DNA of 64,000 bases, taken from contig JAPDKE010000006.1 of NCBI GenBank assembly GCA_029258725.1, positions 199-64,198 on the forward strand, in the 5' to 3' direction. The DNA is from a bacterium (lineage in GTDB: Bacteria > Hydrothermota > UBA3072 > JAPDKE01). The notes under the pieces are model-generated. The model saw only the letters and a program-made list of their open reading frames with translations, was not told the origin of the DNA and did no database searches. Of this stretch, positions 3,001-50,495 are shown in pieces (positions within the stretch are counted from its first letter, which is position 1; the number at the start of each line of letters is the position of its first letter). Made by a program: the position numbers and the translations under genes.

Positions 3001-4258
3001 GCGTCTCAAGATACCTGTACCACGGCTCTTTAAAACCACTTCTCAAATAATAAAGATCTATTCCCCATGTATCCTTTACATACTGAGCAAGGGCAGTCCA
3101 GAATACTTCCTTTATTATGTGATTTAATATAATACCTCTACAAATTCCTACAATTCCATCCTTGGCATTCCATAACCAGTACCAGAGCTCCGCAACGTCC
3201 TTAAGAAGGTAGAGATCGTTTAATAAATCATCGGATAAAACATTTCTTATGGCCATCTCTTCATAATACTGTATTATACTATCACTCGGCGTCCATTGAG
3301 GATGCAAAGGAACGCCCCCAGCCTTCCTTCCATCAGGAAGTGCCCCGTAAATAAAGTATAACGCTATGGCAGTCCCATGCAGATATGCCTTTAGCCTATC
3401 CGGAGTAAGGTTGTCAATATCATACCCCACAGCCTGAGCAGCCTCCACAAATCTGTCTATAGGAGGATAATCTTTGTCATACCAGCCCTCTATATATCTT
3501 CCTGTAATATCATACTCCACAAGATATTGAAATGATTTATATGCAGGGTGCATACTTACTTTAGCTCCTATCTCATCTTCGCTATAACACGTCCATAAAT
3601 ACATAAGAATACTCTCGGGATGCGGAACATAGGTTTCAACAAAGAGTTCATAATATCCCTCAGGAGCCTGCAATATATCTGTTCCCAAAGCACTGTCCGC
3701 CAGTATAGAGTATCCATATCCAAAAAGAGAAGGAATAAGAACCATATGAGCATACAAATCCTGAAGAACATGCATAAAAGCCCCGTAAATAAGAGACTTC
3801 TCATAGGGACTCCATCCCTGCTGGTTTGCATACTGCACCATTGCGTATAACTTCTCAAAGTTATGATTCAAATCAGGCTCGTTAAATTTGATAAGTTGCC
3901 GTGTCTGATTATATATCTCATCGCTGATCTTTAACCCTTCTGGCTCTATAGCATATTCCGCATACCAGGGAATATTGTATAAAATATCTATAAGCTCTGA
4001 TATTCCCCTCTGAGCATCCTCATCCAGAAGATCAGGCAGCATCGTTCCAATATAGTAAAACTTCTTGGTCATCATATCTATAAAATCATTCCAAGTACCT
4101 TCGACTTTCCAGGGTTTTCCCAACACATCCCTGAAATCACTGTCAAACCCAGCCCATACATCCTTTGTCTTCATTGAAATATAAATATGGGTGAACGGAG
4201 CAAAGGCATAAAGGGAAACAAAAAAGAAAAATGAGAGAAGAAAAGATGCCCTTTTCAT
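1..4258 (-). CDS. Large secreted multidomain protein (>1419 aa, runs off window start): N-terminal Zn-dependent phospholipase C-like domain, then FN3-like, BNR/propeller and CBM/Ig-like modules
   Basis: Not in the ORF track. ATG at 4258 after a GGAGG RBS; MKRASFLLSFFFFVSLYA signal peptide, then FAPFTH, YYIGTMLPD and GAFMHVLQDLYAH (Zn_dep_PLPC-like motifs). Later NPPKNLEV..FKWRD (FN3-like) and YSEDGGVTW (Asp-box). The same frame is still open at the window start (...WFDHFSLIKDTLPPRVLVL). Confidence 0.8.
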   Translation of the reverse strand, partial: MKRASFLLSFFFFVSLYAFAPFTHIYISMKTKDVWAGFDSDFRDVLGKPWKVEGTWNDFIDMMTKKFYYIGTMLPDLLDEDAQRGISELIDILYNIPWYAEYAIEPEGLKISDEIYNQTRQLIKFNEPDLNHNFEKLYAMVQYANQQGWSPYEKSLIYGAFMHVLQDLYAHMVLIPSLFGYGYSILADSALGTDILQAPEGYYELFVETYVPHPESILMYLWTCYSEDEIGAKVSMHPAYKSFQYLVEYDITGRYIEGWYDKDYPPIDRFVEAAQAVGYDIDNLTPDRLKAYLHGTAIALYFIYGALPDGRKAGGVPLHPQWTPSDSIIQYYEEMAIRNVLSDDLLNDLYLLKDVAELWYWLWNAKDGIVGICRGIILNHIIKEVFWTALAQYVKDTWGIDLYYLRSGFKEPWYRYLETPEMMDLVYNALPSSEQNVEIIDGVSFSKGYAKARRIVEFLDTYGDYKKPNLRSSYAEELNRAISLLSVWAQNVLQGPQYLDYTMIIPEYDPTKKVSIYAISRKAGVVGGIYPIDDPYYYDQPGVIKMFFEGNNEVLTTLDAPDISFNTVNLHYDVITFGPTKIQLWEVLSNGEDGNKIGDTLLEGVQRHEGNFTVDIPQSPNVSEISFEIKTRHKFFTTNYARMISSNYRDTYGEHPEIHDNPYYQDILKGGNPYREIGENPLHDPVRNWPYTLSVLNPPKFLEVYALNHEYVRFKWRDRSYHETDNPQGGYYIYKDGNVLFFLPGAPGAGSICEHIWGPITGNPDGRYKMKTTNGVRVSVFSDSIDFVLPLKDHFTTSYSHATAYNNERKIAETSDGVLHVIYVHNDSLWYTYSEDGGVTWKPDFFLDTISGPYLATLATYGDELWVSWTTTYSKGVFVGYAINVRKNYYDPQIGARVWAYPRRYCVGGRNIHRTTFGPLTLAINDEYGFVGYKESYYFQWQGSDYDRTFRILRFRKNNLNDTLVFFVVPTSPNINDGYIDDAIDGGVITSTDDGKIYAVWRKGTSGPFHWQLRDRDGTVLEGGTFSGINKGDQLSIGWGDGALHLVWSEVPLDESDREIYYKKYVPGIGEGGKKRLTKNDGDSEYPVIVAGKVVAFHDNSTGDWEIHLKPPVGAGGPEAPPPETVVTVDRAVYPHLAISADGEYFHCIWTNGDDPYTIGYLKGRLVPEVLVLEPSAYDNNCRKWRIGETMKIRWRINSFFAHKAPEIWLCDVNKERLKLIVPDSLLNRRDTLYFWDTDSIVPGEYMIEVFVRTATGDSGSGYSEPFILTHDLVFNPSFEEGLCCWGEATDYGKVAIDSPGLYGDSCLRIEGDGSRWYWRVGQGGIPVVRGETYWLCGWIRTDFTQGKAKLVIGDYLGNSAHFDNLTGRTSWKYAYASFVPQNDSVRISAMIIDSAQGRAWFDHFSLIKDTLPPRVLVL

Positions 4259-4276
4259 CTCTCCCTCCTTTTTACT

Positions 4277-5467
4277 TCATTTTACATTCTCCACCCTGAA
4301 TACAACTTCAAAGTTCTTGGGCTCCATCTCCTCTATCCAGACAAGATAAAGCCTCCCATCCCGGATAACCCCCGATGGGGTCATGGAAAAATAAGGAGTC
4401 TCAATCCTGTGAGTCTCAAACTCATTCCCATCCCAGGCACTCCAGTAAAGATCAGCAGTACTCCCCTCTATCTTCCACCATAAAAGATAAAGGTCAGAAC
4501 CATGGAAAAATATCCTGTCAAGCCTCGGCTTACCACACATGGGAAAGGTATCAACAGAAGACCATGAAGTATCCTCCTTGACCATATAGGCAATGTTATA
4601 AGTCCCAAAACCACAGTGAAAATGAGGATCATGCCAGGTAACAACAAGCCTCCCATCCCTGCTCAAGGCAATCCTTGGCCACTCCGCACTTGCAGAACCA
4701 TATATCATCTCAGAAATATACCAGCCATCCTTATCACCATAAGAATAGAAAATGCTCCCGCCCCCTTCCACAAGGTGAACCTTCCCATCACCGTCAATAA
4801 CAAACCTGAGATTGTCAGCCCTTGCCGGAAGTTCATACGGTCCTTCCCAGCTTCCATCGGGATTGCGAATAAGATAATGATAAACAATCCCGCCCGAAAA
4901 AGGCTCGTATATCAAATGAAACCTGTTCTCCCTATCACATTGAGCATACCATAACCATGTCCGCTCAGGAAGAACCTCAAGGTCTCCCCATTCACCACCA
5001 AAAGGCTTGCAGGCATAGAAAAGGGTCCCGGGCTCCCAGTCTCTGTAAAGCAAATGAAGATTTCCAAGAGAGTCCATCCTGAGCGTGGGCCATGCAGCCT
5101 CACCCCTATCATATACCACAACAGGCTCAGACCAGTTACGCTCAGAAATATCCCTCCAGGAATACATTATCCTCCAGTCCCCTGTTGTAACATCACTGTC
5201 AGCCCAGACAACATGAATAATACCATCAGGAGTAATAGCAATCTCAGGACAGACAGAATTTCCAGGGGTATTGGAAATCACCTGAAAAGGCAGATTTTCT
5301 CCATCCTCCCTCTGACAGAAACTGCCTGAAAAAAGAAAAAGAAGTAAAACAAGAAAAAGTGCTCTTAGCCCGTACCCGACTCTAATAAAAATCTTCCCAC
5401 CTTTTCCTTCCTTACGGGAGGAAGAAGAAACAGCGTAAATCACCAAATCTCTTCTATGCTTGCTCAT
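4277..5467 (-). CDS. Secreted BNR/sialidase-like beta-propeller protein
   Basis: Repeated 'G.IHVVW.D', 'GNLHLLY', 'GKVHLV', 'GRLVVTW' and 'GRLYLVW' blades. The hydrophobic signal segment starts ~33 aa in, after a degenerate leader-element sequence. Confidence 0.75.
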   Translation of the reverse strand: MSKHRRDLVIYAVSSSSRKEGKGGKIFIRVGYGLRALFLVLLLFLFSGSFCQREDGENLPFQVISNTPGNSVCPEIAITPDGIIHVVWADSDVTTGDWRIMYSWRDISERNWSEPVVVYDRGEAAWPTLRMDSLGNLHLLYRDWEPGTLFYACKPFGGEWGDLEVLPERTWLWYAQCDRENRFHLIYEPFSGGIVYHYLIRNPDGSWEGPYELPARADNLRFVIDGDGKVHLVEGGGSIFYSYGDKDGWYISEMIYGSASAEWPRIALSRDGRLVVTWHDPHFHCGFGTYNIAYMVKEDTSWSSVDTFPMCGKPRLDRIFFHGSDLYLLWWKIEGSTADLYWSAWDGNEFETHRIETPYFSMTPSGVIRDGRLYLVWIEEMEPKNFEVVFRVENVK

Positions 5468-5522
5468 TTTTGCCCTCTTTTAAATTTTTAAAATTTTTCC
5501 CACTTTGTCAACCCCTCGATTT
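5380..5522 (-). repeat. Degenerate copy (F) of the promoter-leader-hairpin element, fused in frame to the BNR gene
   Basis: AATCGAGGGGTTGACA (TTGACA at 5506-5511), then TCTTCTTCCTCCCGTAAGGAAGGAAAAGGTGGGAAGATTTTTATT, which aligns with the hairpin/U-tract of the other copies. Confidence 0.55.
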
Positions 5523-5640
5523 TTCCTTCCACCACTCAGTAACAGGAAGGGGTAAGATGGATGAGCATGAAATTTTTATCAACACTCATTTCTCTCCTCT
5601 TCCAAGTATAGAATACAATATCTTTTATCACTCTGTCAAG
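5523..5640 (-). repeat. Leader element copy A (promoter, RBS, truncated leader ORF 5536-5589 MSVDKNFMLIHLTPSCY*)
   Basis: TTGACA at 5634-5639 and TATTCT -10; core TTTCATGCTCATCCATCTTACCCCTTCCTG shared with the other copies. Confidence 0.75.
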
Positions 5641-5821
5641 GGTTCCATTTTCCTCAAGAATAATGGGGCCCAAAGTGGATTTGTTTCTTCAGATTTTTGG
5701 TTGAATCAAAAAACTTTTGAAACCGTATGAATGCCCTTCACCATTTTGTTTTTGTGGGCAGAATTGTTAACTGTTAATGATTAACCCCCAAAATCATAGT
5801 GAGAAGCGATTTCTTCTCATT

Positions 5822-6274
5822 TCAATCACCTCCTTTTGGTTGAAGATTGAAATTTAAGGTAGTGGTATCTTCCATTATAATGAAAGATTTCACTTTGAAG
5901 TAATAACCCTCTTTATAAGCACTCACATATACCTTAGTATTTACATATCCAGCAATGCATGCATAATATCCATTTTCATTAGTATACGCATATGGAGTAT
6001 GAATTACAGAATCTGCAGGATAACTTCTCGAAATCCCTATACACACACTATCCAAAGGTTCTTCCGTTTGAGCATCATGCACATACCCATCGATCCAACC
6101 AACGGGTGGCTCAGGTGGCTCTGGCTCCTTAATATCGCAAGCAGTTCCCCAAAAGATCAGTGCTCCCACAATGACTATTCTTGAAATCCATGTATAAACA
6201 CTTACTCCGATTATCCTCCATAAAGGTATATCCTGATTATCCCCCGCTGATAAAAGCAAAAATAGAACTCTCAT
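5822..6274 (-). CDS. Putative lipoprotein with carboxypeptidase-regulatory-like (beta-sandwich) domain
   Basis: GTAC lipobox, Pro-rich linker, 'G.V.DA.T.EPL', 'TNENGYY' and 'KEGY' motifs. Confidence 0.7.
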   Translation of the reverse strand: MRVLFLLLSAGDNQDIPLWRIIGVSVYTWISRIVIVGALIFWGTACDIKEPEPPEPPVGWIDGYVHDAQTEEPLDSVCIGISRSYPADSVIHTPYAYTNENGYYACIAGYVNTKVYVSAYKEGYYFKVKSFIIMEDTTTLNFNLQPKGGD

Positions 6275-6440
6275 CGCTCCCTCCTTTCCTTCGCATTATA
6301 AATCAAAAAAATTCCTTCCTCCTTTACCTCCCTCTCGGGACAGGAAGGGGCAGGACGGATAACCATGAAATTTTTACAGGTATTCATTTTTCCCATCCTT
6401 CATTCACAGGGTAAAACATTTTCTACTTCTCTGTCAAGCC
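6271..6440 (-). repeat. Leader element copy B (promoter, RBS, 38 aa leader ORF 6271-6387, hairpin + U-tract)
   Basis: TTGACA at 6432-6437; MNTCKNFMVIRPAPSCPEREVKEEGIFLIYNAKERRER*, whose TGA overlaps the next ATG (ATGA); CCTTCCT...AGGAAGG followed by A2T7. Confidence 0.8.
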
Positions 6441-6455
6441 CCTCACATTCAGTTT

Positions 6456-7289
6456 CTATTCTTCCAGAACATCTCTCAATATCCATATTTCAAGATTTAT
6501 GAGCCTGCACCCCGGGTCAATACAGCCTATCATTTCTCCTGCTGAGAAAATCACATCCTTACCAGACGGGTCCCAGGAGGGAAATTTTATTCCGCTATTA
6601 CAATAAGGCCTTGCATCAAGTCTGATAGTATCACCTGTAGAAAGAGAGAAAAGATAAAGTCCACCTCCTTCTGTTATCAAATATTGAGAATTTGTGGGAT
6701 TTAAAGAGGGATAAGAACCCATGAGCACGATGGTATCCGCAACAACCTCAAAACCATCAAATCCCATTTCTTCGTAAGGTTTAACAAACTCCTCTTCCCC
6801 GGTATACAGGTTCAAGCGATAAAAACCCCGTTGAGAACGGCCTCCACCCCATGCATAGTAATAAAGAAAAGTATCCTCATGGCCAAATCTTAAACATTCC
6901 ACATAAGGTTGAGAATGATAAATGGTATCAAGAACTTCACCCTCAGGGGTTATAAGGAGAATTATTGTGTCATTTGTCACCGCAATCTTTGAACCATCAT
7001 CTGAGAGGTCAAAATAAGTCCATAAACCATCTATCACCTCTCTTTCGTCCGTCCCATCAAGGTTTACTACCTTTAATGTGCCATAGCCCCACCAGGGCTC
7101 CGCAATCTTCTCAAGATAGAAAATTCTGTCATCGGGACTCCACCGGGGAAAACACAGGTATGCATTTTCTTTTGTCAGCACCAGTTCAAGTTTTGAATTC
7201 CTGTGGAAAAACAGGCATTCCCAATCACAACCTCCGGTAAGAAGGGCAAGATTGAAGAGGAAAAGATAGAGTAAGTATCTGGGCTTCAT
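6456..7289 (-). CDS. TolB-like (PD40) beta-propeller lipoprotein, paralog 1
   Basis: TGGC lipobox; PRWSPDDR, LSDDGSKIA and PSWDPSGK repeats; paralogous to the next two genes. Confidence 0.8.
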   Translation of the reverse strand: MKPRYLLYLFLFNLALLTGGCDWECLFFHRNSKLELVLTKENAYLCFPRWSPDDRIFYLEKIAEPWWGYGTLKVVNLDGTDEREVIDGLWTYFDLSDDGSKIAVTNDTIILLITPEGEVLDTIYHSQPYVECLRFGHEDTFLYYYAWGGGRSQRGFYRLNLYTGEEEFVKPYEEMGFDGFEVVADTIVLMGSYPSLNPTNSQYLITEGGGLYLFSLSTGDTIRLDARPYCNSGIKFPSWDPSGKDVIFSAGEMIGCIDPGCRLINLEIWILRDVLEE

Positions 7290-8185
7290 TTTTTATCTCC
7301 CTCGCTTTCTAAAACATCCTTTAAAATCCAGATCTCAAACCATGTAGGTCTTACAGGGTCTCCTACACATTTAGCAGAGGAAAAAACCACATCTTTTCCC
7401 AAAGGAGACCAAGAAGGATAAAGTATCACAGCACAGGGATAAGGTGCTGTATCTAAGGTATCCATTTCACCACTCAGAAAGTTTAATAAAATAAGCCCTT
7501 CACCTTTTTCTACGCTTCCAAATAAGTATTGTGGAGATATTATATATTGGTGGTCTACAGGGTTAAAACTTTGCATTCCTTCCACAATCTCCCCATCAGG
7601 AGTAACCTCAAAACCCATTATATTTAAATCTCTGCATTGTTCAATAAACTTCTCTTCCCAGGTATAAAGATTAATCCTGTAAAAGCCCCAGGAAGAATCA
7701 TTTTCACTCCCATAAGCGTAGTAGTAAAGAAATGTATCACTCCAGCCAAATCTACACGTAAGAACATAAGGCTGAGAAGTGGGTACCGTGTCCAGTATCT
7801 CACCATCAGGAGTAAGGAGAATTAAAATTCCTCCACTGTCTATATATACTCCCCAATACTCAACACTTAATTTGCCTTTAATTACTGCCAGGTTTGTTCC
7901 ATCCCTTGACATAGTAAGGTATGACCATGCGCCATCAATTACCTTCTTTTTTCCAGAACCATCAGCATTCACCACCATAAGTGTTCCTGCATCACTCCCT
8001 GCTATCTCGAGATAAAATATCTTACCATCCGGATGCCAGCAGGGCATAATAAGATGGCAATTTTCCTCTGATATTACAGATTTCAGATTGGGATTCCTGC
8101 GAAAGATAAACCAGGAAAACCAATCCACACCGCAACCTTTCAGGAAAACGAGTAAGCCCAGACCTATAAAAAACTTTGCCTTCAT
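7286..8185 (-). CDS. TolB-like beta-propeller lipoprotein, paralog 2
   Basis: LKGC lipobox; PCWHPDGK, MSRDGTNLA and PSWSPLGK; shares RNPxL and EIWILxDV with its paralogs. Confidence 0.8.
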   Translation of the reverse strand: MKAKFFIGLGLLVFLKGCGVDWFSWFIFRRNPNLKSVISEENCHLIMPCWHPDGKIFYLEIAGSDAGTLMVVNADGSGKKKVIDGAWSYLTMSRDGTNLAVIKGKLSVEYWGVYIDSGGILILLTPDGEILDTVPTSQPYVLTCRFGWSDTFLYYYAYGSENDSSWGFYRINLYTWEEKFIEQCRDLNIMGFEVTPDGEIVEGMQSFNPVDHQYIISPQYLFGSVEKGEGLILLNFLSGEMDTLDTAPYPCAVILYPSWSPLGKDVVFSSAKCVGDPVRPTWFEIWILKDVLESEGDKK

Positions 8186-8265
8186 CTCACACCTCCTTTA
8201 AAAAATCCTTAATATCCAACCCCACCTTAAAAACAAAAAGAAATAAGGATTAAAAAATTTCCTTT

Positions 8266-9261
8266 TCATTTCTCACCTCCTTCCAGACTTTCCCAGACGT
8301 CATGCAAAATCCAGAGTTCTAAAATTCCTACACTCGCTTCAACGCAGCCACCGTAAACCTCTCCAACACTTATAACCAATTTCTCACCATCAGGAGACCA
8401 GTATGCAGATTCAAAGCCAGACAGGTCTTCCGGTGGACCAAATGGGTCTGCATCTAACTCTATCAGTGTATGAGTAGAAAGGTTTAGAAGATACAAATCA
8501 GCGATTCCTGGACCCATACTGTATCCATTCAGAAAGACAAGGTAATTCTCGTGTACAGGATTTAATTTGGGAGAGCAGAAACATCCCGGATAAGCAAGAG
8601 AATCTATATTTCCATAGCATATAGAGTCACCGTAACAGAGGCAAAACCCGGCTCCCCACTTCATCATTGATACATCTCCTTCCTCTTTTACCAGTTCCTC
8701 ACCACTCCCATCCAGATTTATCCGGTAAAAGCCAAAGGGAATGCCTGTATACACCTTGTCATAGGCATAATAATACAACTTTGAATCGTCTGACCCGAAT
8801 TCAACATCCAGAACCAGAGGTAAACCCGTGGGAAGGGTATCAAGGATATTTCCAGATGTATCCACAAGTATCAATGGACCTCCATCCCATTCAAGTTCAT
8901 TATCACCTGTCTCATAACTCAAGGCAAGTAAACTTCCATCATGAGAAATAGCAAGAGAACAAAAAGGACCCTTTAAAAGAAATTTACTCTCCCTCGTATC
9001 AAGATTTATTTTCCATAATTCCCCACCTATGCCAAGGGATGTTGCATAGGTAATACGATTATTTCTATGTGTCCTTAAATAATAAATAAACCTTCCATCA
9101 GGACTCCATACGGGATTGAAAAGACAGCATGAGTCATCCCTTACCAGAAGTTCCAGATCAGGATTTCTCTCCCACTTCTCCCCAAAAGGCCAGAGTGAGC
9201 ATCCTGTTAAAATGAGTATTGCAGGAAGAAAATAAGTGCTATTTAAACGATTCCAGAACAC
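8266..9261 (-). CDS. TolB-like beta-propeller lipoprotein, paralog 3
   Basis: LTGC lipobox; PVWSPDGR, ISHDGSLLA and WSPDGEK; GTG start directly after the leader ORF stop. Confidence 0.8.
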   Translation of the reverse strand: MFWNRLNSTYFLPAILILTGCSLWPFGEKWERNPDLELLVRDDSCCLFNPVWSPDGRFIYYLRTHRNNRITYATSLGIGGELWKINLDTRESKFLLKGPFCSLAISHDGSLLALSYETGDNELEWDGGPLILVDTSGNILDTLPTGLPLVLDVEFGSDDSKLYYYAYDKVYTGIPFGFYRINLDGSGEELVKEEGDVSMMKWGAGFCLCYGDSICYGNIDSLAYPGCFCSPKLNPVHENYLVFLNGYSMGPGIADLYLLNLSTHTLIELDADPFGPPEDLSGFESAYWSPDGEKLVISVGEVYGGCVEASVGILELWILHDVWESLEGGEK

Positions 9262-9424
9262 TCAAGGCCTCCTGTTTTGGGTTTTCCATAAAAGCAAACC
9301 CCCTTCCTCCTTTGCCTCCCTTTCGGGATGGGAAGGGGTAAGATGGAAGAATTTAAAGTTTTCACAGCCATTCATTTTCCTCTCCCCTTACAGGTTAAAA
9401 CATTTTTTACATTTTTGTCAAGGG
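9262..9424 (-). repeat. Leader element copy C (promoter, RBS, 37 aa leader ORF 9262-9375, hairpin + U-rich tract)
   Basis: TTGACA at 9416-9421 and TAACCT; MNGCENFKFFHLTPSHPEREAKEEGGLLLWKTQNRRP* abuts GTG at 9261; ACCCCTTCC...GGAAGGGGGT stem followed by TTGCTTTT. Confidence 0.8.
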
Positions 9425-9450
9425 TGCGAGATTGTAAAAGGTATCTTCCA

Positions 9451-10092
9451 TCATTCTTTCACAAGTTCCCCTATTTTTCTCAATTCTCCATAAACCCACT
9501 GACGAACTGTATTCTCATCTTTTGTTTTAAGCATTTCCTTAGCTTCTTCATAAATAGTATCTATTTTAGCATCTACGATATCGGGATATTCAATAGCAGA
9601 TTTTATAATTCCTTTAGCAATCTCAAGGGGTATTCCAAACTTCTTTATTCCAAATTGCTCAAACCTGACCGTATCCTTGCGTATGGCATATTTCCCAAAT
9701 TCTGAACATGCTACCTCCATGGTATCTCCTCCCAGCCACGGACACCTGGAACATCGGGGGTGAAGCTCCGCCCATTTCTCCGAATCCTGAACAAAAACAA
9801 GAACTGTTTCTGCAGGAGAAAATAATGACCCTGATGTAGTTTTGAGAGTAAGTAGTGAATCTTTCCATACACCCATTATATCCTCAGACACCAACAGATT
9901 TATAACAATTAACCAGCGGTCCCATTTTTCTTCATAGCCACCCTTTGTCGACTCCACTATACCCACAATTATTGCGGAAGAGTGTTTGCATAAAAATCCA
10001 ATCGTATAAGGAGTTTTTAACCCATACTCCTTATCAGGCGCAACGTATGCACTTAATACAAAAAGTCCTGAAAGAAAAAATCCATGCATCAT
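9451..10092 (-). CDS. Secreted hypothetical protein
   Basis: Probable start ATG at 10092 after AGGAGG, with a signal-peptide-like N-terminus. The ORF-track extension upstream is the leader element in frame. Confidence 0.65.
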   Translation of the reverse strand: MMHGFFLSGLFVLSAYVAPDKEYGLKTPYTIGFLCKHSSAIIVGIVESTKGGYEEKWDRWLIVINLLVSEDIMGVWKDSLLTLKTTSGSLFSPAETVLVFVQDSEKWAELHPRCSRCPWLGGDTMEVACSEFGKYAIRKDTVRFEQFGIKKFGIPLEIAKGIIKSAIEYPDIVDAKIDTIYEEAKEMLKTKDENTVRQWVYGELRKIGELVKE

Positions 10093-10117
10093 TTTGCACC
10101 TCCTTTCCTTTCCTGTC

Positions 10118-10267
10118 TTTAAAAAAACAAAAACCCCTTCCTCCTTTACCTCCCTTAAGGGACAGGAAGGGGCAAGATGGATGACCATGAAATCTTTACA
10201 ATTTCCCATTCCTTTCCTCCTTACATTTTTATTGTACCCCGCTTTTTCCATCTGTCAACCTCGATTC
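10118..10267 (-). repeat. Leader element copy D (promoter, RBS, leader ORF from 10209 in frame with the downstream gene, terminator-like hairpin)
   Basis: TTGACA(10253-10258)-N16-TACAAT; AGGAGG; MGNCKDFMVIHLAPSCPLREVKEEGVFVFL; CCCCTTCCT...AGGAAGGGG followed by TTTTTGTTTTTTT. Confidence 0.85.
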
Positions 10268-10439
10268 GGGTGTATAACAAAATATCTTGTAAATATCCAG
10301 GGTTATCCAGGGATATTGAGAACTCATAGCCCTTGCAGGGGTGCTTGATGCAGGAATGAGGATAGAGAAAGACACCCTTAAAGAAATCCCGGAAGACCCC
10401 TTCACCGATAGTGACGTCCAAAGATATGGGCTTCTCCCC

Positions 10440-10467
10440 TTGACACCTCTCCCCTCTTCCCTATACT
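10440..10467 (+). promoter_or_regulatory. Sigma70 promoter for the rsmD-coaD operon (likely leaderless or very short leader)
   Basis: TTGACA-N16-TATACT, with ATG 8 nt downstream and no SD. Confidence 0.65.
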
Positions 10468-10475
10468 TTCAACCG

Positions 10476-10985
10476 ATGACAAGAATTTGCGGAGGGAAAT
10501 GGAAGGGGAGGAAACTTTCTTCCCCTTCTGGAATAAGACTCACATCGGGAAGGGTGAAGGAGGCCCTCTTTTCAATGGTGGATGTGGAGGGGAAGGATTT
10601 TCTGGACCTCTTTGCAGGAAGCGGAGCCGTTGGAATAGAGGCACTTTCAAGAGGGGCAAAAAATGCAGTCTTTGTTGAAAAAAGAAGAGAGATTGTGAAA
10701 ATAATAAAAAAGAACCTTGAAAACCTCGGAGGAGTGGGTAAGGTTATAAGAGGAGACGCCGAACGTGTTGTGAGGAAAATGGAAGAAAAATTTGATGTAA
10801 TCTTCATGGACCCTCCATACGAGAGGGGATATGTTGAGAGAGTACTTCCCCTCCTTCCTTCTCTTTTAAGGGAAGAAGGGATTATAGTTGTGGAGCACTC
10901 AAAAAGAGAGCCCGCGGAACTTCCTGGGTTTGAAAAGAAGGAAAAAATCTATAACGATACCGTTCTCACCCTTTTCTGGAGGTAA
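10476..10985 (+). CDS. rsmD: 16S rRNA (G966-N2) methyltransferase RsmD
   Basis: RICGGKWKGRKL, VKEALFS, LDLFAGSGAVGIEALSRGA and DPPY. Confidence 0.95.
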   Translation: MTRICGGKWKGRKLSSPSGIRLTSGRVKEALFSMVDVEGKDFLDLFAGSGAVGIEALSRGAKNAVFVEKRREIVKIIKKNLENLGGVGKVIRGDAERVVRKMEEKFDVIFMDPPYERGYVERVLPLLPSLLREEGIIVVEHSKREPAELPGFEKKEKIYNDTVLTLFWR

Positions 10986-29710: not shown

Positions 29711-30622
29711 TTACCTCCTTTTTTGAAGACGAAGAATATATCCCCTCTCACCCACTATCCATACGCAATTGGGTGCCAGTGCAAAAACTGAACACAGGTT
29801 GTGGTTTGTCTCTAACATCAATTTCCACTCATTTTTCCCATAATAATAAATGTGCCCAAAGTTCGGACTTCCATATACTGCCCATCCTTCGTCACTATCC
29901 GCAAATGAAATTGAAGTCACTGAATAAAAGACACCTTCGCTAACTTTTCTCCATTCTTTGCCATCAAAATGTAAAATGGGGAGCATTCCTTTACCTTTCA
30001 GTCCTGCCCAGCCGTTCGAAGAAGATGTGAAATACACAGAAGTTACTGGGTTGATAAAAATGGAATCAATCAAAGTCCATTTACCGTTTAAGTAACGAAG
30101 AATACAGCCACATCCTCCCCTACTACCCACAATCCATCCTTCATCTGATGATAGAAAACATAAGTCTTCCCAGACTATAGTGGTATCTCCGTAAATTATC
30201 TTCCACTCGAGAGTATTATAGTGGAGTATTATTCCATATTTGCCAACTGCCCAACCTTCATATTCACTTGTAAATTGTACATTACTTAAATCTGCATCTA
30301 CTGGAGAATGCACTTCCTTCCATGCAGTGCCAACCCATCGCAATATTGTTCCAGAGTCTCCAACTACCCAGCCATTATCCTCGTTTACAAAAAATACTCC
30401 GTTCAACTTTTTTGTCGTTGGGCTTTCTACCAGACTCCATTTTTCTCCATCCCAGTGAATTATCACACCGGAATCTCCCACTGCCCAGGCATCATTCTCA
30501 GAAAGGGCAAAAACCGAATATAGATCTTTTGTGGTGGGGCTTTCTACTTCAACCCATTCAATCTTCTCAAAAAGCCTGCATCCCGAGAAAAATATCAGTA
30601 ACAAAAAAATAAATTTCCACAT
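29711..30622 (-). CDS. YCF48-like beta-propeller lipoprotein
   Basis: FSGC lipobox and repeated 'SPT..L..V......WAVG..G.I..W.G..W' units. Confidence 0.82.
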   Translation of the reverse strand: MWKFIFLLLIFFSGCRLFEKIEWVEVESPTTKDLYSVFALSENDAWAVGDSGVIIHWDGEKWSLVESPTTKKLNGVFFVNEDNGWVVGDSGTILRWVGTAWKEVHSPVDADLSNVQFTSEYEGWAVGKYGIILHYNTLEWKIIYGDTTIVWEDLCFLSSDEGWIVGSRGGCGCILRYLNGKWTLIDSIFINPVTSVYFTSSSNGWAGLKGKGMLPILHFDGKEWRKVSEGVFYSVTSISFADSDEGWAVYGSPNFGHIYYYGKNEWKLMLETNHNLCSVFALAPNCVWIVGERGYILRLQKRR

Positions 30623-30789
30623 GCATCACTCCTTTTCATTCTTTTCTCTTTTGTCAAGCAAGCGATTTTCCTCCCGCATTCTTTACGATATTCAGGATGC
30701 CTCTCCCACCACTCAGCAATCTGTTGAGCGAGTTTAAGATTCCCTTTCCTGTACTCCCTTGAATACTCCTTTCTCTTATTCTTTCCCTT

Positions 30790-30942
30790 ATTCTCTCTTC
30801 CTATTCTTTCCTCCTTTATCTTCCTTAAGGGAGAGGAGGAGGCAAGATGGATGAGCATGAAATCTTTACAATTTCTCATTCCTTTCCTCCCCTTATATTT
30901 TTATTATGACCTGCTTTTTTTCATCTGTCAACCCCCCGATTC
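30790..30942 (-). repeat. Leader element copy E (promoter, RBS, leader ORF from 30879 extending to 30595)
   Basis: AATCGGGGGGTTGACA(30926-30931)-N17-CATAAT; GGAGG; MRNCKDFMLIHLASSSPLRKIKEE. Very similar to copy D. Confidence 0.85.
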
Positions 30943-31083
30943 TCCTGTCGCCACCAGCCTTATCACCCTGAGGAATAAATTGAGTGTAAACATATCTCCA
31001 TTCGTTATCTTCCCTTAAATTCCACACAGGGAAAAATAAATTTCATGCATGAATCCCCATGAACCGCCCCGGGGAGAAGAAAT

Positions 31084-42120: not shown

Positions 42121-44016
42121 ATGATGGTTCTTTTATTTCTGCTCTCGCAGTATGAGACTCTTTCTCTTGCAGAGCTTCTTGAAATCCAGGTGGTCACCGC
42201 AATGAAAAAACCCCTTGAGTTGAAGGAAGTTCCGGTTCCAATAAGTGTGATAACACACGATATGATGGAGGGATATAGAAGTGTTGCGGAGGTTCTGGAG
42301 GATGAGGCGGGGATATATGTGAATCGGGACCTGGTATTTGAGGATGTGGGTCTGAGAGGGATTGTGAGCGGAATGAGGGGATATTCAAGGGGATGGAAGA
42401 TACTCATAAATGGAATGCCTGTAAGTTACAGGGTTTCCTCGATAAAGTCCCTTGGCGATGAGTTCATACCTCTGGATGCTGTGGAAAGGATTGAGATTGT
42501 AAAGGGACCCTCCTCTGCGCTCTATGGTGCCAATGCATTCCTGGGGGTTATAAACATAATCACCCGAAAAGAGAGTGCATTCCGTGTGAGCGGAAATATG
42601 AAAGGATGGGAAGAAAATGTGGTTTTATGGAAGGAGGGGTTTCTTTTTGTTGAGAGGGGAGGATACAGGGACAGGAGCGGACTTTCTGTCCCTTCTGAGT
42701 CTCCTGCCTCGGAATTCTTTGAGGGAGAAAGTGAAAACGATACCAGGTCCCCTCTTTTTCTGTATTACAGATTTGAAAAGGAGGGATTCTTCTTTGACCA
42801 CCTCTATCAGCGAACCGAAACGCATGGAGAGTTCACGGATTGGGGTAAACTCACCCATGAGAATATAATCTCTTTTGAAAATTCACACATGAGAATAGGG
42901 GTGGATAAGGAATGGAAAATGATGAGGTTCACAACCTCCCTCATGTACTCCTATGGTTCTCCCACGGATGAGGAGCATCTTTATACAGGAGAGGATTACT
43001 ATGTGGTGAAGGACGTTGCATATCAGGGTATGGATTTTTCCGGGGAGGTTAAGTTAACGGGAGAGAAGGGCGAATTTCTTGCGGGTTACGACCTTTCAGT
43101 GGACAGACATTCCCTCCCAAATGTGTATCATGTGGATAGTCTTGGAAACTGGGAGATAGAGAGGAGATATCCACCCGTGCCTCAGGGAGATACCCTTTTC
43201 ATCAACCATGGTGTCTATGCCCAGGGGCTTTTGAGGTTAACCGATAAATTCCTTCTTGGAGGTGGGGTGAGGGAGGATATTCAGAACATTTATGGAAACT
43301 TCCTCTCCTACCGTGCAGGAATATCCTTCACCCCGGGAAACTTCTACATAAAACTCTTTACGGGAACATCCTTTAAGGCACCCCCTCCTGATCTTCTCTT
43401 TGGAAGACCGATAAGGGAGTACGGAGGAGTTCTTCCTAACCCATCTCTCAAGCCTGAAAAGGCATCTGAGGCTGAAATCACTGCAGGAGGAGCATTTGGC
43501 AGTGTTTCCTCTTTTCTCTCTCTTTATTACCTCATGGTGAACGATAAGGTTGAGCTTGTTCCGTCGGGAGAGGCTTACCGTCCACGCAACATAGCATCTC
43601 TTTCAGGATACGGGGTTGAGTTTGGAATAAAGGGAAGATTCTCCTTCGTGAGGCCTTACATGAATGTCTCCTGGACAAGGATGGAGGATGAGGATGGAAA
43701 CAGAACAGCGGTCTATCCTGAATTCATGGTGAAGGGTGGATTGCAGTTTGTATTTTCTCCCTTAAAGGGATACATTCGTGGAAGATATGTGGGTGAAAGA
43801 AGGGCTTCCCTTACCAACATGAGAGAGTATGGAGAATACACACTTTCTCCATATCCTGTTCTCGACGCCGGGATAGGGATTGATATGGGAAGATGTTCCA
43901 TAGAGATTGATGTTAAGAATATCCTTGACGAAGGATACACCTATCCCGGTTATGGAGGGATTGATGTTCCATCCCTCCCGAGGGAGTTTCATGCATCGTT
44001 AATCTTCAAACCATGA
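42121..44016 (+). CDS. TonB-dependent receptor
   Basis: LSLAELL..VVTA (plug), ILING, ERIEIVKGPSSALYG, NPSLKPE and KNILD. Upstream TTGACA..TAAAAT promoter. Confidence 0.9.
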   Translation: MMVLLFLLSQYETLSLAELLEIQVVTAMKKPLELKEVPVPISVITHDMMEGYRSVAEVLEDEAGIYVNRDLVFEDVGLRGIVSGMRGYSRGWKILINGMPVSYRVSSIKSLGDEFIPLDAVERIEIVKGPSSALYGANAFLGVINIITRKESAFRVSGNMKGWEENVVLWKEGFLFVERGGYRDRSGLSVPSESPASEFFEGESENDTRSPLFLYYRFEKEGFFFDHLYQRTETHGEFTDWGKLTHENIISFENSHMRIGVDKEWKMMRFTTSLMYSYGSPTDEEHLYTGEDYYVVKDVAYQGMDFSGEVKLTGEKGEFLAGYDLSVDRHSLPNVYHVDSLGNWEIERRYPPVPQGDTLFINHGVYAQGLLRLTDKFLLGGGVREDIQNIYGNFLSYRAGISFTPGNFYIKLFTGTSFKAPPPDLLFGRPIREYGGVLPNPSLKPEKASEAEITAGGAFGSVSSFLSLYYLMVNDKVELVPSGEAYRPRNIASLSGYGVEFGIKGRFSFVRPYMNVSWTRMEDEDGNRTAVYPEFMVKGGLQFVFSPLKGYIRGRYVGERRASLTNMREYGEYTLSPYPVLDAGIGIDMGRCSIEIDVKNILDEGYTYPGYGGIDVPSLPREFHASLIFKP

Positions 44017-44027
44017 GGAGGTGGGGC

Positions 44028-45227
44028 ATGAGGAAACTTCTTTTAATCCCCCTTGTCCTTTTACTTGTGGGATGCCCAGGAGGTGAAAAAGAAACGGTGA
44101 AAATAGGAGCGCTCATACCGCTTACCGGAGGTCTTGCATCCTACGGTGAGTACATGCAGTATGCAATAGATGTTGCCGTGGAGGAAATCAACGAAAATGG
44201 AGGGGTTCTCGGGAAGGAGGTTGAGGTTGTTGTGAAAAACACGGAAACAAATCCGGATGTTGCAAGGGAGGCAGCGCAGGAACTTGTTGATGAGGGAATA
44301 AGAATTATAATCGGTGCAGCGGCAAGCAGTTCAACAATAGAGGCGTCAGAGGTTACCATTCCAAATGAATGTGTTCTTATTGCTCCCCCTTCCACATCCC
44401 CTGATATAACCACCCTTGATGACAATGACCTTGTATTCAGAACATGCCCTTCAGACCTCTTCCAGGGAAAGGTTATGGCAAAGTATCTCCATGATCAGGG
44501 TAAGACAAGTATCGTTGCGCTCTACATCAACAATTCGTACGGGACAGGACTTAAGAATGTTCTCTATCAGGAATTTGCAGCACTTGGTGGAGAGACCCTC
44601 AAGAGTGTCTCCTATCCTGAGGAGTTCAGCATCCTTCCTCCTGAGAGCATAGATTTCCTTCCCTATATAGATACTCTCTATGCAAGAAATGCAGATGTTG
44701 TTGTTCTCATTGCATATGATGAGGGAGGAATTGCGGTCCACAAGGAGGCGGAGGAGAGGGATGATGTTATAGAGTGGTTTGGATGTGATGGTATAATGAC
44801 CCAGGGATTCCTGGATAATGCAGGAACCTACGCTGAGGGAATAAAGGGAACTGCTCCCTATCACGAGGAGGATGAGTATTACGACGACTTCAGAGAAAGA
44901 TACAGCGAAAAGGCAGGATGCGACCCCATAACCTTCATACCCAACACCTACGATGCTGTAATTCTTGCAGCCCTTGCCATTGAACATGCTGGAACATGGG
45001 AGGATGGAATTGCAATAAGAGATGCACTGAGGGAGGTTGCGTCCGGAGGAACGGCTGTGAGGACATTTGCAGACGCTGTTGAAAAACTGCAGGCTGGTGA
45101 GGACATAGATTACAACGGGATTTCAGGAACACTTGATTTTGACGAGAATGGGGATGTGGAGGCTCCCTACGAAATCTGGGAGGTTCAGTCAGGTGAGTTT
45201 GTGCATGTTGAGGTGGTGACACCATGA
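44028..45227 (+). CDS. Periplasmic binding lipoprotein, LivJ/K (branched-chain amino acid) family
   Basis: LVGC lipobox, IGALIPLTG, EINENGGVLG, FRTCPSD, YDAV and GISGTLDFDENGD. Confidence 0.9.
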   Translation: MRKLLLIPLVLLLVGCPGGEKETVKIGALIPLTGGLASYGEYMQYAIDVAVEEINENGGVLGKEVEVVVKNTETNPDVAREAAQELVDEGIRIIIGAAASSSTIEASEVTIPNECVLIAPPSTSPDITTLDDNDLVFRTCPSDLFQGKVMAKYLHDQGKTSIVALYINNSYGTGLKNVLYQEFAALGGETLKSVSYPEEFSILPPESIDFLPYIDTLYARNADVVVLIAYDEGGIAVHKEAEERDDVIEWFGCDGIMTQGFLDNAGTYAEGIKGTAPYHEEDEYYDDFRERYSEKAGCDPITFIPNTYDAVILAALAIEHAGTWEDGIAIRDALREVASGGTAVRTFADAVEKLQAGEDIDYNGISGTLDFDENGDVEAPYEIWEVQSGEFVHVEVVTP

Positions 45228-49885: not shown

Positions 49886-50488
49886 TTATGAGAGGAGGAG
49901 AACACCTTTAAAAACGAGGGTATCCGAGTTTGAGGCTAAGGATATAAATTCATCTAAAAAGTTGATATGATTTTCAAGTATATTCATTTGAGTAAGATAT
50001 CTTAATAAAGGCAATACCAAATTTTTGGGAGAGAACATACCCAATATGTGTCTTTTTCCCTTAATCCAATACGCTGGGGCTGTAAGTTCTATTCTTTCTC
50101 TTATATTTGTTGAAAGGTCCCAGGCGTTAGGAATAAGAAATTCTATTAGATACAGTGGGTTAATCATAAATGCAATCATATCTTTATGTTCTGATGATGG
50201 TGGTAATTGAAATTCTATAGAGAATCTTTCCCCTGCTTCAATCTCCGGTTGAAATAGTGGAGTTTCTGTATTCTTTCTTATTCTCACATTTAAAGAATCT
50301 TTTATTTTGTCAACTCTATCTAAAATTTTTTCAACTTTTTCTTTCCTTTTCTTTAACTCTTCTTCTTTCACTGCATTTAAAATCCAGCCTTCTGGCTCGT
50401 GTCCCCCGGCAATTTTTACAAGCCAGTCCCAAGTCCCCGTATCCTTTGGATTTTTTATATAGGTGTCGAGCATATCCCAGAAACTCAT
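49886..50488 (-). CDS. Hypothetical protein
   Basis: 200 aa ORF, last of a tightly spaced run; no recognised motif. Confidence 0.6.
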   Translation of the reverse strand: MSFWDMLDTYIKNPKDTGTWDWLVKIAGGHEPEGWILNAVKEEELKKRKEKVEKILDRVDKIKDSLNVRIRKNTETPLFQPEIEAGERFSIEFQLPPSSEHKDMIAFMINPLYLIEFLIPNAWDLSTNIRERIELTAPAYWIKGKRHILGMFSPKNLVLPLLRYLTQMNILENHINFLDEFISLASNSDTLVFKGVLLLS

Positions 50489-50495
50489 TTCTTCT

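What the first reader, a model, noticed from the sequence alone, without database searches (positions are those of the whole stretch)
5380..10267. Repeated promoter + leader peptide + terminator-like hairpin element upstream of accessory envelope genes (candidate novel attenuator)
Seen: a ~140 bp minus-strand unit recurs at ~5523-5640, 6271-6440, 9262-9424, 10118-10267 and 30790-30942, with a degenerate copy at 5380-5522. Each clear copy has TTGACA/-10, a purine-rich SD and an ATG. The ORFs are MSVDKNFMLIHLTPSCY*, MNTCKNFMVIRPAPSCPEREVKEEG.., MNGCENFKFFHLTPSHPEREAKEEG.., MGNCKDFMVIHLAPSCPLREVKEEG.. and MRNCKDFMLIHLASSSPLRKIKEE.., with no indels between the ATG and the hairpin. From about codon 13 the ORF encodes a CC(CC)TTCC...GGAAGG(GG) stem, followed by a U-rich tract in copies B, C and D. 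Every downstream gene is secreted or a lipoprotein. Inference: this is ribosome-mediated transcription attenuation. The pyrimidine arm could alternatively pair with the leader SD, and Cys/His in the peptide hint at cysteine, metal or redox sensing. I do not recognise it as a known riboswitch or leader family.
Basis: partly seen in the sequence, partly recalled or inferred. Interest (0 to 1): 0.9.

Follow-up and report, generated by a model that had tools for sequence, protein, structure and literature searches.

The report
Repeated promoter-leader-terminator cassette before secreted genes
A 165-base module carrying a promoter, a ribosome-binding site with a short reading frame and a terminator-like hairpin sits in front of about a dozen secreted-protein genes of one uncultured hydrothermal-vent bacterium; it most likely acts as an on/off gate on transcription, but this has not been tested.

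Summary
The unit is at the stated window coordinates. The whole 2.1-Mb genome holds 14 copies: 11 clear, 2 degenerate and 1 cut by a contig end. Every copy lies co-oriented directly upstream of a gene whose N-terminus looks like a signal peptide or lipoprotein. It matches no Rfam family. It was not found in 25 class-level or 150 phylum-level relatives, nor in the phage, plasmid or viral collections searched. Only near-identical strains in vent and sediment metagenomes carry it.

Each intact copy has an invariant TTGACA, a -10 box, an SD, an ATG and a 37-nt spacer. A hairpin of about -20 kcal/mol with a U-tract follows, lying inside the short ORF. The downstream start codon is 67-80 nt after the hairpin's 5' arm.

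The peptide-sensing idea fails. Substitutions are spread evenly over the three codon positions. pN/pS is 0.67, against 0.74 and 0.81 in the control frames. "Cys16" varies C/H/S/Y/P, and two strain copies are frameshifted.

Predicted folding pairs the leader SD and AUG with a pyrimidine tract next to the terminator. My best reading (confidence 0.42) is a lineage-specific conditional terminator gated by ribosome loading, working like pyrBI. Covariation is weak and no RNA data exist.

The parts
10095..10266 (-). Copy D, the best-preserved copy and my reference for the anatomy. -35 TTGACA 10258-10253; -10 TACAAT 10236-10231; SD GGAGG 10220-10216; leader ATG 10209-10207; pyrimidine tract UCAUCCAUCUU 10184-10174; terminator 5' arm 10172-10164; inner stem and tetraloop 10162-10151; 3' arm 10142-10134; U-tract 10133-10121; downstream SD about 10110-10099; downstream ATG 10092-10090.
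   Evidence: Sequence; promoter scan scores 11 of 12; exact 9-nt inverted repeat I4; R1 score 146.5 bits.
9262..9429 (-). Copy C. It lies upstream of a three-gene array of lipoprotein or PD40-like genes (8266-9261, 7286-8185, 6456-7289). The leader stop TGA directly abuts the GTG start.
   Evidence: 107 bits.
6271..6445 (-). Copy B. -35 at 6437-6432; leader ATG 6387-6385; A-run 6375-6371, which is one A longer in some strains. The leader stop overlaps the downstream ATG (ATGA) of the 150-aa gene 5822-6274.
   Evidence: 116.7 bits.
5502..5645 (-). Copy A, truncated. It keeps the promoter, SD, ATG and 5' arm, then breaks inside the hairpin and runs straight into copy A0. The same tandem pair is present at G000 C25:30611-30867.
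   Evidence: 45.5 bits.
5376..5522 (-). Copy A0, degenerate. Its leader ATG (5467-5465) is the only canonical start region for the 396-aa ORF 4277-5467. That ORF's hydrophobic signal-like segment lies after the degenerate hairpin and the T-run.
   Evidence: 36.4 bits.
30786..30943 (-). Copy E. The promoter, SD and first 13 codons are conserved. The hairpin arms have changed on both sides (CCUCCUCCU / AGGAGGA) and the U-tract is lost. A 303-aa BNR/Ycf48-like lipoprotein gene (29711-30622) starts 220 nt after the arm.
   Evidence: 79.5 bits.
9451..10092 (-). 213-aa gene with a signal-peptide-like N-terminus, downstream of copy D. No Pfam family.
4277..5467 (-). 396-aa ORF fused to the A0 leader. 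No Pfam family.

Best explanation
The element is a lineage-specific cis-regulatory 5' cassette shared by about a dozen accessory genes for secreted proteins and lipoproteins. It has four working parts:
- A sigma-70-type promoter starts a transcript only a few nucleotides upstream of a canonical SD and AUG.
- The first roughly 55 nt can fold so that the SD and the AUG pair with a pyrimidine tract (UCAUCCAUCUU).
- Directly after it comes a hairpin of about -20 kcal/mol with a U-tract, read here as an intrinsic terminator. It lies inside the short ORF, at codons 13-27.
- The downstream gene has its own SD 15-30 nt after the U-tract but no promoter of its own.

The downstream gene is therefore transcribed only when the terminator is read through. 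I propose that ribosome loading on the leader decides this. A ribosome that starts early and follows the polymerase covers the 5' arm and prevents the hairpin, as in the pyrBI (pyrL) attenuator. Without that ribosome, the 5' hairpin and the terminator form and transcription stops.

The peptide sequence itself carries no signal.

Shown: the repeat, its anatomy, its placement, the absence of peptide-level selection and the narrow distribution. Inferred: promoter activity, termination, translation of the leader and the direction of the switch.
For: Placement:
- The genome has 14 copies, all co-oriented upstream of ORFs with signal- or lipoprotein-like N-termini.
- In 25 of 28 copies that have a separate downstream gene, the downstream start lies 67-80 nt after the 5' arm.

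Conserved signals:
- TTGACA, a purine-rich SD and the ATG are kept in all 9 aligned G000 copies, while the promoter spacer and the -10-to-SD segment vary and carry indels.
- The 16S rRNA 3' end is the canonical ...CACCTCCTTTCTA, so AGGAGG is a true SD here.

Hairpin:
- The hairpin with its U-tract scores -19.8 to -21.1 kcal/mol. Only 6.3% of 510 long-ORF ends have any hairpin plus T-tract at or below -12 kcal/mol.
- On the model-fitted alignment 92% of cells are paired, against 54-83% when the partner is slid. Five pairs changed on both sides, against 1.3 +/- 0.9 in shuffles; 1 of 500 shuffles reached that.
- Copy E keeps 7 stem pairs through two double changes.

Folding:
- All 12 of 12 full-length folds give a 5' hairpin holding the SD, plus the terminator.
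- 11 of 12 truncated folds pair the SD tract with the terminator's 5' arm.
- Copy B has changes on both sides that make a contiguous SD:anti-SD helix. A population variant (window 6356) turns its U.G pair into U-A.

Translation competence:
- In the A0-type copies the leader ATG region is the only canonical start for a 396-aa ORF whose signal-like segment lies behind the hairpin.
- The leader ORF covers the whole hairpin in all 28 copies outside the A/A0 tandem pairs.

Constraint:
- Elements in front of unrelated genes are 89-93% identical. The paralogous genes behind D and C16b are only 73% identical.

Known analogue:
- Passages of PMC4824070 and PMC5021804 state that the pyrBI terminator lies within the leader-peptide gene and that tight coupling prevents its formation.
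Against: - There is no expression evidence of any kind.
- The terminator stem is almost invariant, and the metagenome copies were ascertained with a pattern that required it. RNAalifold finds a covariation term of only -0.8, with 1 of 24 pairs compensatory.
- The slid controls also show 1-4 double changes.
- Whole-leader folding energies are not unusual against shuffles (z -1.94 to +0.03).
- Two of the three frames are open across the hairpin, so an open leader ORF is weak evidence. Two of 34 copies are frameshifted.
- The leader stop position differs between close strains at the same locus: +1 versus +101, +4 versus +32, +1 versus -24. Coupling to the downstream start is therefore not conserved.
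- Most leader ORFs end after the U-tract, so terminated transcripts would be non-stop messages.
[quoted passage not shown] No U-rich pause tract lies between the ATG and the hairpin.
- Canonical terminators are barely enriched at gene ends in this genome (12.5% against 9.4% on the antisense control).
- High identity between copies could come from gene conversion rather than from selection.
Confidence: 0.42

Rival explanations
1. The element is a non-sensing expression cassette. A strong promoter and a structured 5' UTR have been copied between accessory surface-protein genes by homologous recombination and kept alike by gene conversion. The hairpin serves as a 5' stabiliser, a leaky terminator or an insulator against read-through from the gene upstream. 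No signal is read.
For: - Elements before unrelated genes are 89-93% identical, while neighbouring paralogous CDSs are 73% identical.
- Strain contigs are mosaics whose matches to different G000 contigs switch at the element. L047, for example, joins C16-like upstream DNA to the C28-type gene, and L038 is similar.
- Contigs of other runs break at element borders (table 7).
- Three of 13 G000 copies have lost the terminator (A truncated, C26 with its 3' arm deleted, E without a U-tract), apparently without harm.
- The clusters hold an IS256/Mutator-family transposase.
Against: - A -20 kcal/mol hairpin with a U-tract placed between a promoter and its only gene is costly unless it is conditional.
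- The SD, the ATG and the 37-nt spacing are kept in 32 of 34 copies.
- The pyrimidine tract next to the terminator is nearly invariant at all codon positions.
Confidence: 0.25
2. The element is a multicopy small RNA gene. The roughly 100-nt transcript from promoter to U-tract is the product. Its C/U-rich tract pairs in trans with SD and AUG regions of target mRNAs. Expression of the downstream gene by read-through is secondary.
For: - The element has its own promoter and terminator, and a 5' hairpin plus terminator architecture.
- The tract UCAUCCAUCUU-CCCCUUCCU is complementary to SD/AUG-like sequences and conserved at every codon position.
- No peptide-level selection is seen.
- From memory only, not from a call: multicopy anti-SD sRNAs such as the streptococcal csRNAs and Listeria LhrC exist.
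Against: - Every copy lies at a fixed distance upstream of a co-oriented gene that lacks a promoter of its own. A trans-acting gene does not need this.
- The A0 copies are translated into a protein.
- The pyrimidine tract is paired, not exposed, in 12 of 12 full-length folds.
Confidence: 0.12
3. The element is a conditional terminator controlled by something other than the ribosome: an RNA-binding protein, a small ligand, or temperature acting directly on the RNA.
For: - A nearly invariant 27-nt stretch overlaps the 5' side of the terminator, where antiterminator proteins usually bind.
- Predicted helix stabilities fall steeply between 37 and 60 C, and runs labelled hydrothermal vent hold the sequence.
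Against: - No CsrA and no BglG/LicT-type CAT domain was found in a genome that is 95.3% complete.
- The variable sequence of the 5' hairpin loop leaves no room for a conserved aptamer core.
- No Rfam match.
Confidence: 0.12
4. The short ORF encodes a functional small protein or a sensing peptide (Cys/His, metal, redox or arrest peptide).
For: - SD and ATG are conserved.
- Cys4, Phe7, Ile10, His11 and Leu12 are mostly conserved.
- Six predicted proteins of this kind exist among 5.77 billion.
Against: - pN/pS is 0.67, against 0.74 and 0.81 in the control frames, and variation by codon position is 32/26/29.
- Codon 16 reads C/H/S/Y/P and codon 18 reads E/L. C-termini differ in length and sequence, and 2 of 34 copies are frameshifted.
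- All 6 database relatives are near-identical strain copies (75-98% identity).
Confidence: 0.05

Closest known systems
pyrBI (pyrL) attenuator of Escherichia coli
   Same: An intrinsic terminator lies inside a short leader ORF. Read-through is thought to need a ribosome that follows the polymerase closely. No classical codon-run logic is needed. (Passages read in PMC4824070 and PMC5021804.)
   Different: - There is no U-rich, UTP-sensitive pause tract before the hairpin.
- The downstream genes encode secreted proteins, not pyrimidine enzymes.
- One genome holds 14 copies instead of one.
- There is no sequence or Rfam relationship.
- The leader SD and AUG are predicted to be sequestered.
Leader-peptide attenuators of amino-acid operons (trp, his, leu, thr)
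   Same: A short ORF with an SD lies upstream of a terminator, and there is a possible alternative pairing involving the terminator's 5' arm.
   Different: - There is no run of regulatory codons.
- The ORF runs through the terminator instead of stopping more than 20 nt before it (distance as stated in PMC4824070).
- The alternative partner is the leader's own SD tract.
- No Rfam leader model matches.
Antibiotic-responsive uORF attenuators (erm-type, yxjB, ABCF genes)
   Same: A short leader ORF governs a downstream terminator through ribosome position. (Abstract listing of PMC6851288; the rest is from memory.)
   Different: The downstream genes are not resistance genes, no conserved arrest motif is under selection, and the leader is multicopy.
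SD-sequestering RNA thermometers (ROSE, fourU)
   Same: The SD and AUG are predicted to pair with a nearby pyrimidine tract in a helix that weakens strongly between 37 and 60 C.
   Different: The sequestered SD belongs to a leader ORF, not to the regulated gene. A terminator follows. No Rfam thermometer model matches beyond chance (FdoG1 thermometer, 13.8 bits against a gathering score of 50, on the opposite strand).
Multicopy anti-SD small RNAs (csRNAs, LhrC; from memory)
   Same: Several near-identical copies, each with its own promoter and terminator and a C/U-rich tract complementary to SD sequences.
   Different: This element is always fused to the 5' end of a gene at a fixed distance, and its pyrimidine tract is predicted to be paired.

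Membership tests
pyrBI-type coupling attenuator | Intrinsic terminator located inside the leader ORF | tested here: met
   The hairpin occupies codons 13-27. The leader ORF covers it in all 28 copies outside the A/A0 tandem pairs.
pyrBI-type coupling attenuator | U-rich (UTP-sensitive) pause region upstream of the terminator that lets the ribosome catch up | tested here: not met
   The longest U-run between the ATG and the 5' arm is 3-4 nt. Pausing itself cannot be tested here.
pyrBI-type coupling attenuator | Read-through depends on leader translation | not testable with these tools
   No RNA or ribosome data.
Amino-acid leader-peptide attenuators | Tandem regulatory codons for the sensed amino acid | tested here: not met
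   The leader peptides contain no repeated codon run.
Amino-acid leader-peptide attenuators | Mutually exclusive antiterminator and terminator | tested here: inconclusive
   SD tract:5'-arm pairing is the minimum-energy fold in 11 of 12 truncated RNAs. This is a prediction only, and there is no covariation for it.
Amino-acid leader-peptide attenuators | Leader stop codon upstream of the terminator | tested here: not met
   The stop lies after the hairpin in all 28 copies outside the A/A0 tandem pairs.
Intrinsic (Rho-independent) terminator | G+C-rich stem directly followed by a U-tract | tested here: met
   A 9-bp outer stem and a 4-bp inner stem, -19.8 to -21.1 kcal/mol, followed by a U-tract in B, C, D, C28 and C16a-c. 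The feature is lost in A, E and the G000 C26 copy.
Intrinsic (Rho-independent) terminator | Transcript 3' ends at the U-tract | not testable with these tools
   No RNA holder was listed.
Any Rfam family (riboswitch, leader, thermometer, sRNA) | Score at or above the family's gathering threshold | tested here: not met
   0 matches over the window at gathering thresholds. In E-value mode there were only three chance-level hits, at 13.8-23.3 bits against thresholds of 50-100.
MITE or other small mobile repeat | Terminal inverted repeats or target duplications, and insertion without regard to genes | tested here: not met
   No terminal inverted repeat is shared by copies B, C and D. All copies are co-oriented upstream of gene starts. 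No match in phages, plasmids or viral contigs.
Protein-coding small gene | Excess of synonymous over non-synonymous change in the reading frame | tested here: not met
   pN/pS is 0.67 in frame, against 0.74 and 0.81 out of frame, on 24 unique leaders.

The most novel reading that the evidence does not exclude
The cassette defines a regulon. One self-contained module, repeated at about 12 genes, couples transcription of a whole set of accessory surface proteins to how readily ribosomes load on a structured leader. That makes it, for instance, a temperature- or translation-capacity-gated attenuator in a hydrothermal-vent bacterium. The same repeats would serve as recombination joints that shuffle surface-protein genes between expression contexts. 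Short homopolymer changes in the leader (A5/A6, U-tract length) would reset individual copies.
Probability: 0.12. Interest if true: 0.75.

Novelty: new variant of a known kind. Interest (0 to 1): 0.45.

Why it matters
If the reading is right, one small genome uses a single portable promoter-leader-terminator module to gate about a dozen unrelated secreted-protein genes.

Known leader-ORF attenuators are single-locus devices tied to one pathway. A multicopy, peptide-independent version would show that coupling-type attenuation can define a regulon. It would also give a compact natural part for transcription-translation coupling studies.

Its restriction to one uncultured lineage limits both generality and testability.

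Tried and rejected
RNA evidence. No RNA holder was listed for window 5200-10500, so transcript ends could not be examined. The four runs I laid were DNA contigs only. They gave strain variants (an insertion at 6370; C>T at 6356) and contig breaks at the repeats, nothing on expression. Parts without cover (7324-7854 in three of the four runs) are not interpreted.

Wider homologues for covariation.
- BLAST against 40 relatives gave one 35-nt hit at E 9.7e-4 in G031. I did not inspect it and take it for chance.
- The covariance model R1 against 25 class relatives gave four hits at E 0.02-0.08. I read them; none shares the anatomy.
- R1 against 150 phylum genomes gave 0 hits at E <= 0.01.
- The pattern scans returned 18 metagenome and 5 genome contigs. 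Of these 23, 16 carry real copies and 7 are chance pattern matches without a convincing model hit.
- All real copies come from close strains (81.6-99.8% identity).
- The MAG behind L057 holds the element on that one contig only.
- A search of 5.77 billion proteins with a 40-aa leader peptide found only 6 near-identical proteins of 22-70 aa. Longer fused forms were not searched.

Ideas I considered and dropped.
- An antisense ORF starting at the reverse complement of the conserved tract. Its ATG is ACG in copy B, and it would cross the indel-rich promoter region.
- A CsrA sponge or target. No CsrA was found.
- BglG/LicT-type antitermination. No CAT_RBD domain was found.
- A MITE, phage or plasmid origin.
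- Translational coupling of the leader to the downstream start as a conserved feature. The stop is within -3 to +8 nt of the start in 16 of 28 copies, but it shifts between orthologous strain copies.

Rows left out. The codon analysis excluded the 3 A0-type copies and the 2 frameshifted copies. The fold survey used 12 of the 24 distinct leaders. The terminator census stopped after 510 ORF ends on the largest contigs.

Supplementary files of papers were not consulted. Statements about trp/his attenuators, erm leaders, csRNA/LhrC and thermometers beyond the cited passages are from memory.

Full report
THE OBSERVATION

The repeat finder groups 6300-6400, 9288-9388, 10122-10222 and 30792-30892 (64-78% identity to the reference). 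It also pairs 5542-5640 with 6340-6438. A MAFFT alignment of the six window copies runs from about 12 nt upstream of a TTGACA box to the SD of the next gene.

The window is contig C13 of a 2.11-Mb, 53-contig genome with 44.6% G+C.

A profile search of the whole genome finds:
- 11 strong hits (E <= 3.7e-24): five on C13, three on C16, and one each on C28, C26 and C25.
- Three weaker hits (E 1.4e-7 to 2.7e-6): the degenerate copies on C13 and C25, and a copy cut by the end of C47.
- Two doubtful hits on C34 and C10.

A covariance model (R1) built from seven intact copies (alignment A2) finds 14 matches in the genome. The repeat is real and far beyond chance.

ANATOMY

The nine best G000 copies align as follows:
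- An invariant TTGACA.
- A variable spacer with two promoter subtypes. One has TACAAT, TATAAT or CATAAT at 16-17 nt. The other has a weaker TATCCT-like box.
- A short, indel-rich segment.
- A purine-rich SD, AGGAGG in most copies.
- An invariant ATG 6-7 nt later.
- A well-conserved 37 nt.
- The 5' arm CCCCTTCC(T).
- Two variable nucleotides.
- A 4-bp inner stem with a tetraloop (GAGA, TTAA or GAAA).
- An 8-nt purine bulge.
- The 3' arm (A)GGAAGGGG.
- A T-tract such as TTTTTGTTTTTTT.
- A second SD and the start codon of the downstream gene.

The simple promoter scan scores copy D at 11 of 12 and copies A and A0 at 10 of 12. The outer arms are exact 8-9-nt inverted repeats in copies C and D. The 16S rRNA of this genome ends in the canonical anti-SD sequence. 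The SDs are therefore genuine ribosome-binding signals.

Across the 34 copies I collected (13 in G000 and 21 on metagenome contigs), the ATG-to-arm distance is 37 nt in 32 and 38 nt in 2. There are 28 copies with a separate downstream gene. In 25 of them the downstream start lies 67-80 nt after the arm. In two it lies at 57 nt; this is one locus in two near-identical strains in which the 3' arm is deleted. In copy E it lies at 220 nt.

CONTEXT

Every G000 copy is co-oriented with, and directly upstream of, an ORF whose N-terminus looks like a signal peptide or a lipoprotein signal. This is by inspection only.

Pfam finds the following in the downstream proteins:
- PD40.
- LVIVD repeats.
- A BNR/Ycf48-like propeller.
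- An M10 peptidase with FN3 and CBM_4_9 domains.
- A C25 peptidase.
- Nothing for most of the others.

The clusters are accessory in character. One holds an IS256/Mutator-type transposase. Strain contigs are mosaics that switch partners at the element.

The target genes are unrelated, yet their elements are 89-93% identical. The paralogous genes behind copies D and C16b share only 73% nucleotide identity, against 92% for their elements.

DISTRIBUTION

The searches gave these results:
- No Rfam family reaches its threshold. In E-value mode there are only chance-level hits.
- Nothing was found in 25 class-level genomes.
- Nothing was found in 150 phylum-level genomes.
- Nothing was found in viral contigs, plasmids or phages.
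- Pattern scans of metagenome and genome contigs found 16 contigs with real copies. All are from close strains (81.6-99.8% identity).
- A protein search with one leader peptide found 6 proteins among 5.77 billion, all 75-98% identical.

In everything I could search, the element is confined to one narrow lineage. DNA runs labelled hydrothermal vent, sediment and seawater hold it.

IS THE PEPTIDE THE POINT?

No.
- On 24 unique in-frame leaders, variation over codons 2-12 is 32, 26 and 29 for codon positions 1, 2 and 3.
- pN/pS is 0.67, against 0.74 and 0.81 in the two other frames.
- The stretch ATCCATCTT(R)CCCCTTCC is nearly invariant at every codon position.
- The 'Cys16' codon sits on the two unpaired nucleotides between the stems and reads C, H, S, Y or P. 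The loop codon reads E or L.
- Two strain copies carry a +1 insertion in an A-run yet keep an open frame across the hairpin. The insertion in the copy-B orthologue appears again in a separate run (place 6370).
- Two of the three frames are open across the hairpin, so an open frame there is weak evidence.
- The C-terminal parts and the stop positions differ between strains at the same locus.

The constraint is therefore on the nucleic acid, not on the peptide.

RNA STRUCTURE

Single-sequence folds always predict the hairpin with its U-tract. Whole-leader energies are not unusual against shuffles (z -1.94 to +0.03).

Scored as a terminator, the hairpin reaches -19.8 to -21.1 kcal/mol. Only 6.3% of 510 long-ORF ends in this genome have any hairpin plus T-tract at or below -12 kcal/mol, against 3.9% on the antisense control.

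Covariation is weak:
- RNAalifold on 24 distinct leaders gives a covariation term of -0.8 and one compensatory pair.
- On a model-fitted alignment of 34 copies, 92% of cells pair, against 54-83% when the partner is slid.
- Five pairs have double-sided changes, against 1.3 +/- 0.9 in shuffles (1 of 500 shuffles reached that). The slid controls also give 1-4.
- Those events come from the decaying copies. Copy E keeps seven stem pairs through a U-A to C-G change and a C-G to U-A change.
- The metagenome copies were found with a pattern that required the hairpin. Their invariance therefore says nothing.

Folding 12 leaders gives in all 12 a 5' hairpin in which the leader SD, and usually the AUG, pair with the tract UCAUCCAUCUU. 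The terminator follows immediately. When the RNA is cut after the 5' arm, the SD tract pairs with that arm in 11 of 12 folds. This is a possible antiterminator.

The inner helix around the AUG uses different partners in different copy types. Copy B has changes on both strands that make a contiguous 7-8-bp SD:anti-SD helix. A population variant at window 6356 turns its U.G pair into U-A.

These are suggestive single events, not statistics.

IS THE LEADER TRANSLATED?

This is indirect evidence only. The SD and ATG are conserved where their surroundings vary. In the A0-type copies (window 5376-5522 and the paralogue on C25), the leader ATG region is the only canonical start for a 396-aa ORF. That ORF's hydrophobic, signal-like segment lies behind the degenerate hairpin and T-run. 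In copy D the leader is in frame with the downstream gene.

MECHANISM

The downstream genes have no promoter of their own in the 15-30 nt after the U-tract. They must therefore be transcribed by read-through of a strong terminator-like hairpin, which argues for a conditional terminator.

The closest known logic is the pyrBI attenuator. There the terminator lies within the leader-peptide gene, and tight coupling of the ribosome to the polymerase prevents its formation (passages in PMC4824070 and PMC5021804). I propose the same logic here, with ribosome loading on a partly sequestered SD/AUG as the variable.

The same passages warn that terminators within the first 100 bp are rarely suppressed unless a pause lets the ribosome catch up. 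I see no U-rich pause tract. The opposite wiring is also possible: an SD:5'-arm antiterminator that a bound ribosome would abolish.

I put 0.42 on the ribosome-gated attenuator and about 0.7 on 'a cis-acting conditional terminator' of any kind.

RIVALS
- A non-sensing cassette spread and homogenised by recombination: 0.25.
- A trans-acting multicopy sRNA: 0.12.
- Control by protein, ligand or temperature: 0.12. No CsrA or CAT_RBD domain was found.
- A functional peptide: 0.05.

NOVELTY AND VERDICT

The sequence family is new to Rfam and to every collection searched. A leader-ORF/terminator module repeated at about 12 unrelated genes is unusual. The kind of device is known, the lineage is very narrow, and nothing about function is shown. 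I rate it a new variant of a known kind, with moderate interest (0.45).

Noticed in passing
G000 C16:39927-41065, 43991-45143 and 50317-51002 (L002): A stretch of about 1.1 kb encoding a CBM_4_9-type C-terminal domain is repeated at about 93% identity directly upstream of two elements. A third partial copy lies near the contig end. The duplicated unit there is a domain plus an element.
   Followed up: partly
L002:6379-7695 (G000 C16:38378-39694, minus strand): A 438-aa IS256/Mutator-family transposase (Pfam Transposase_mut, E 4.3e-58) lies inside the element-bearing gene cluster.
   Followed up: no
G000 C10:40-149 (minus strand) and C34:7986-8039: Weak profile hits (E 0.005 and 0.003). The C10 site has GGGGTTGACAA, an SD and ATG, and a pyrimidine tract followed by a purine tract in the same order. 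It may be a diverged family member cut by the contig end. R1 did not report it.
   Followed up: no
L057 (genome contigs record) and protein P0006: A contig titled as an archaeal MAG, and a protein labelled Woesearchaeota, are 92-97% and 75% identical to this genome's element loci. This genome carries a bacterial 16S rRNA. That MAG holds the element on this one contig only. This looks like a binning error.
   Followed up: partly
window 4232-4271, 6248-6287, 8243-8282 and others (family D2): A 40-nt repeat family that is simply SD, ATG and the first signal-peptide codons of several lipoprotein genes. One search also flags a terminator-like hairpin at 4268-4236.
   Followed up: no
whole genome: Canonical hairpin-plus-T-tract terminators are barely enriched after long ORFs: 12.5% against 9.4% on the antisense control, over 510 ORF ends. 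The organism may rely little on intrinsic terminators at gene ends.
   Followed up: partly
window 7324-7854: Contigs of three of the four DNA runs laid give little or no cover here, inside the 299-aa lipoprotein gene, and several joints skip parts of the array. This may be strain-level gene-content variation or may come from the contig filter.
   Followed up: no
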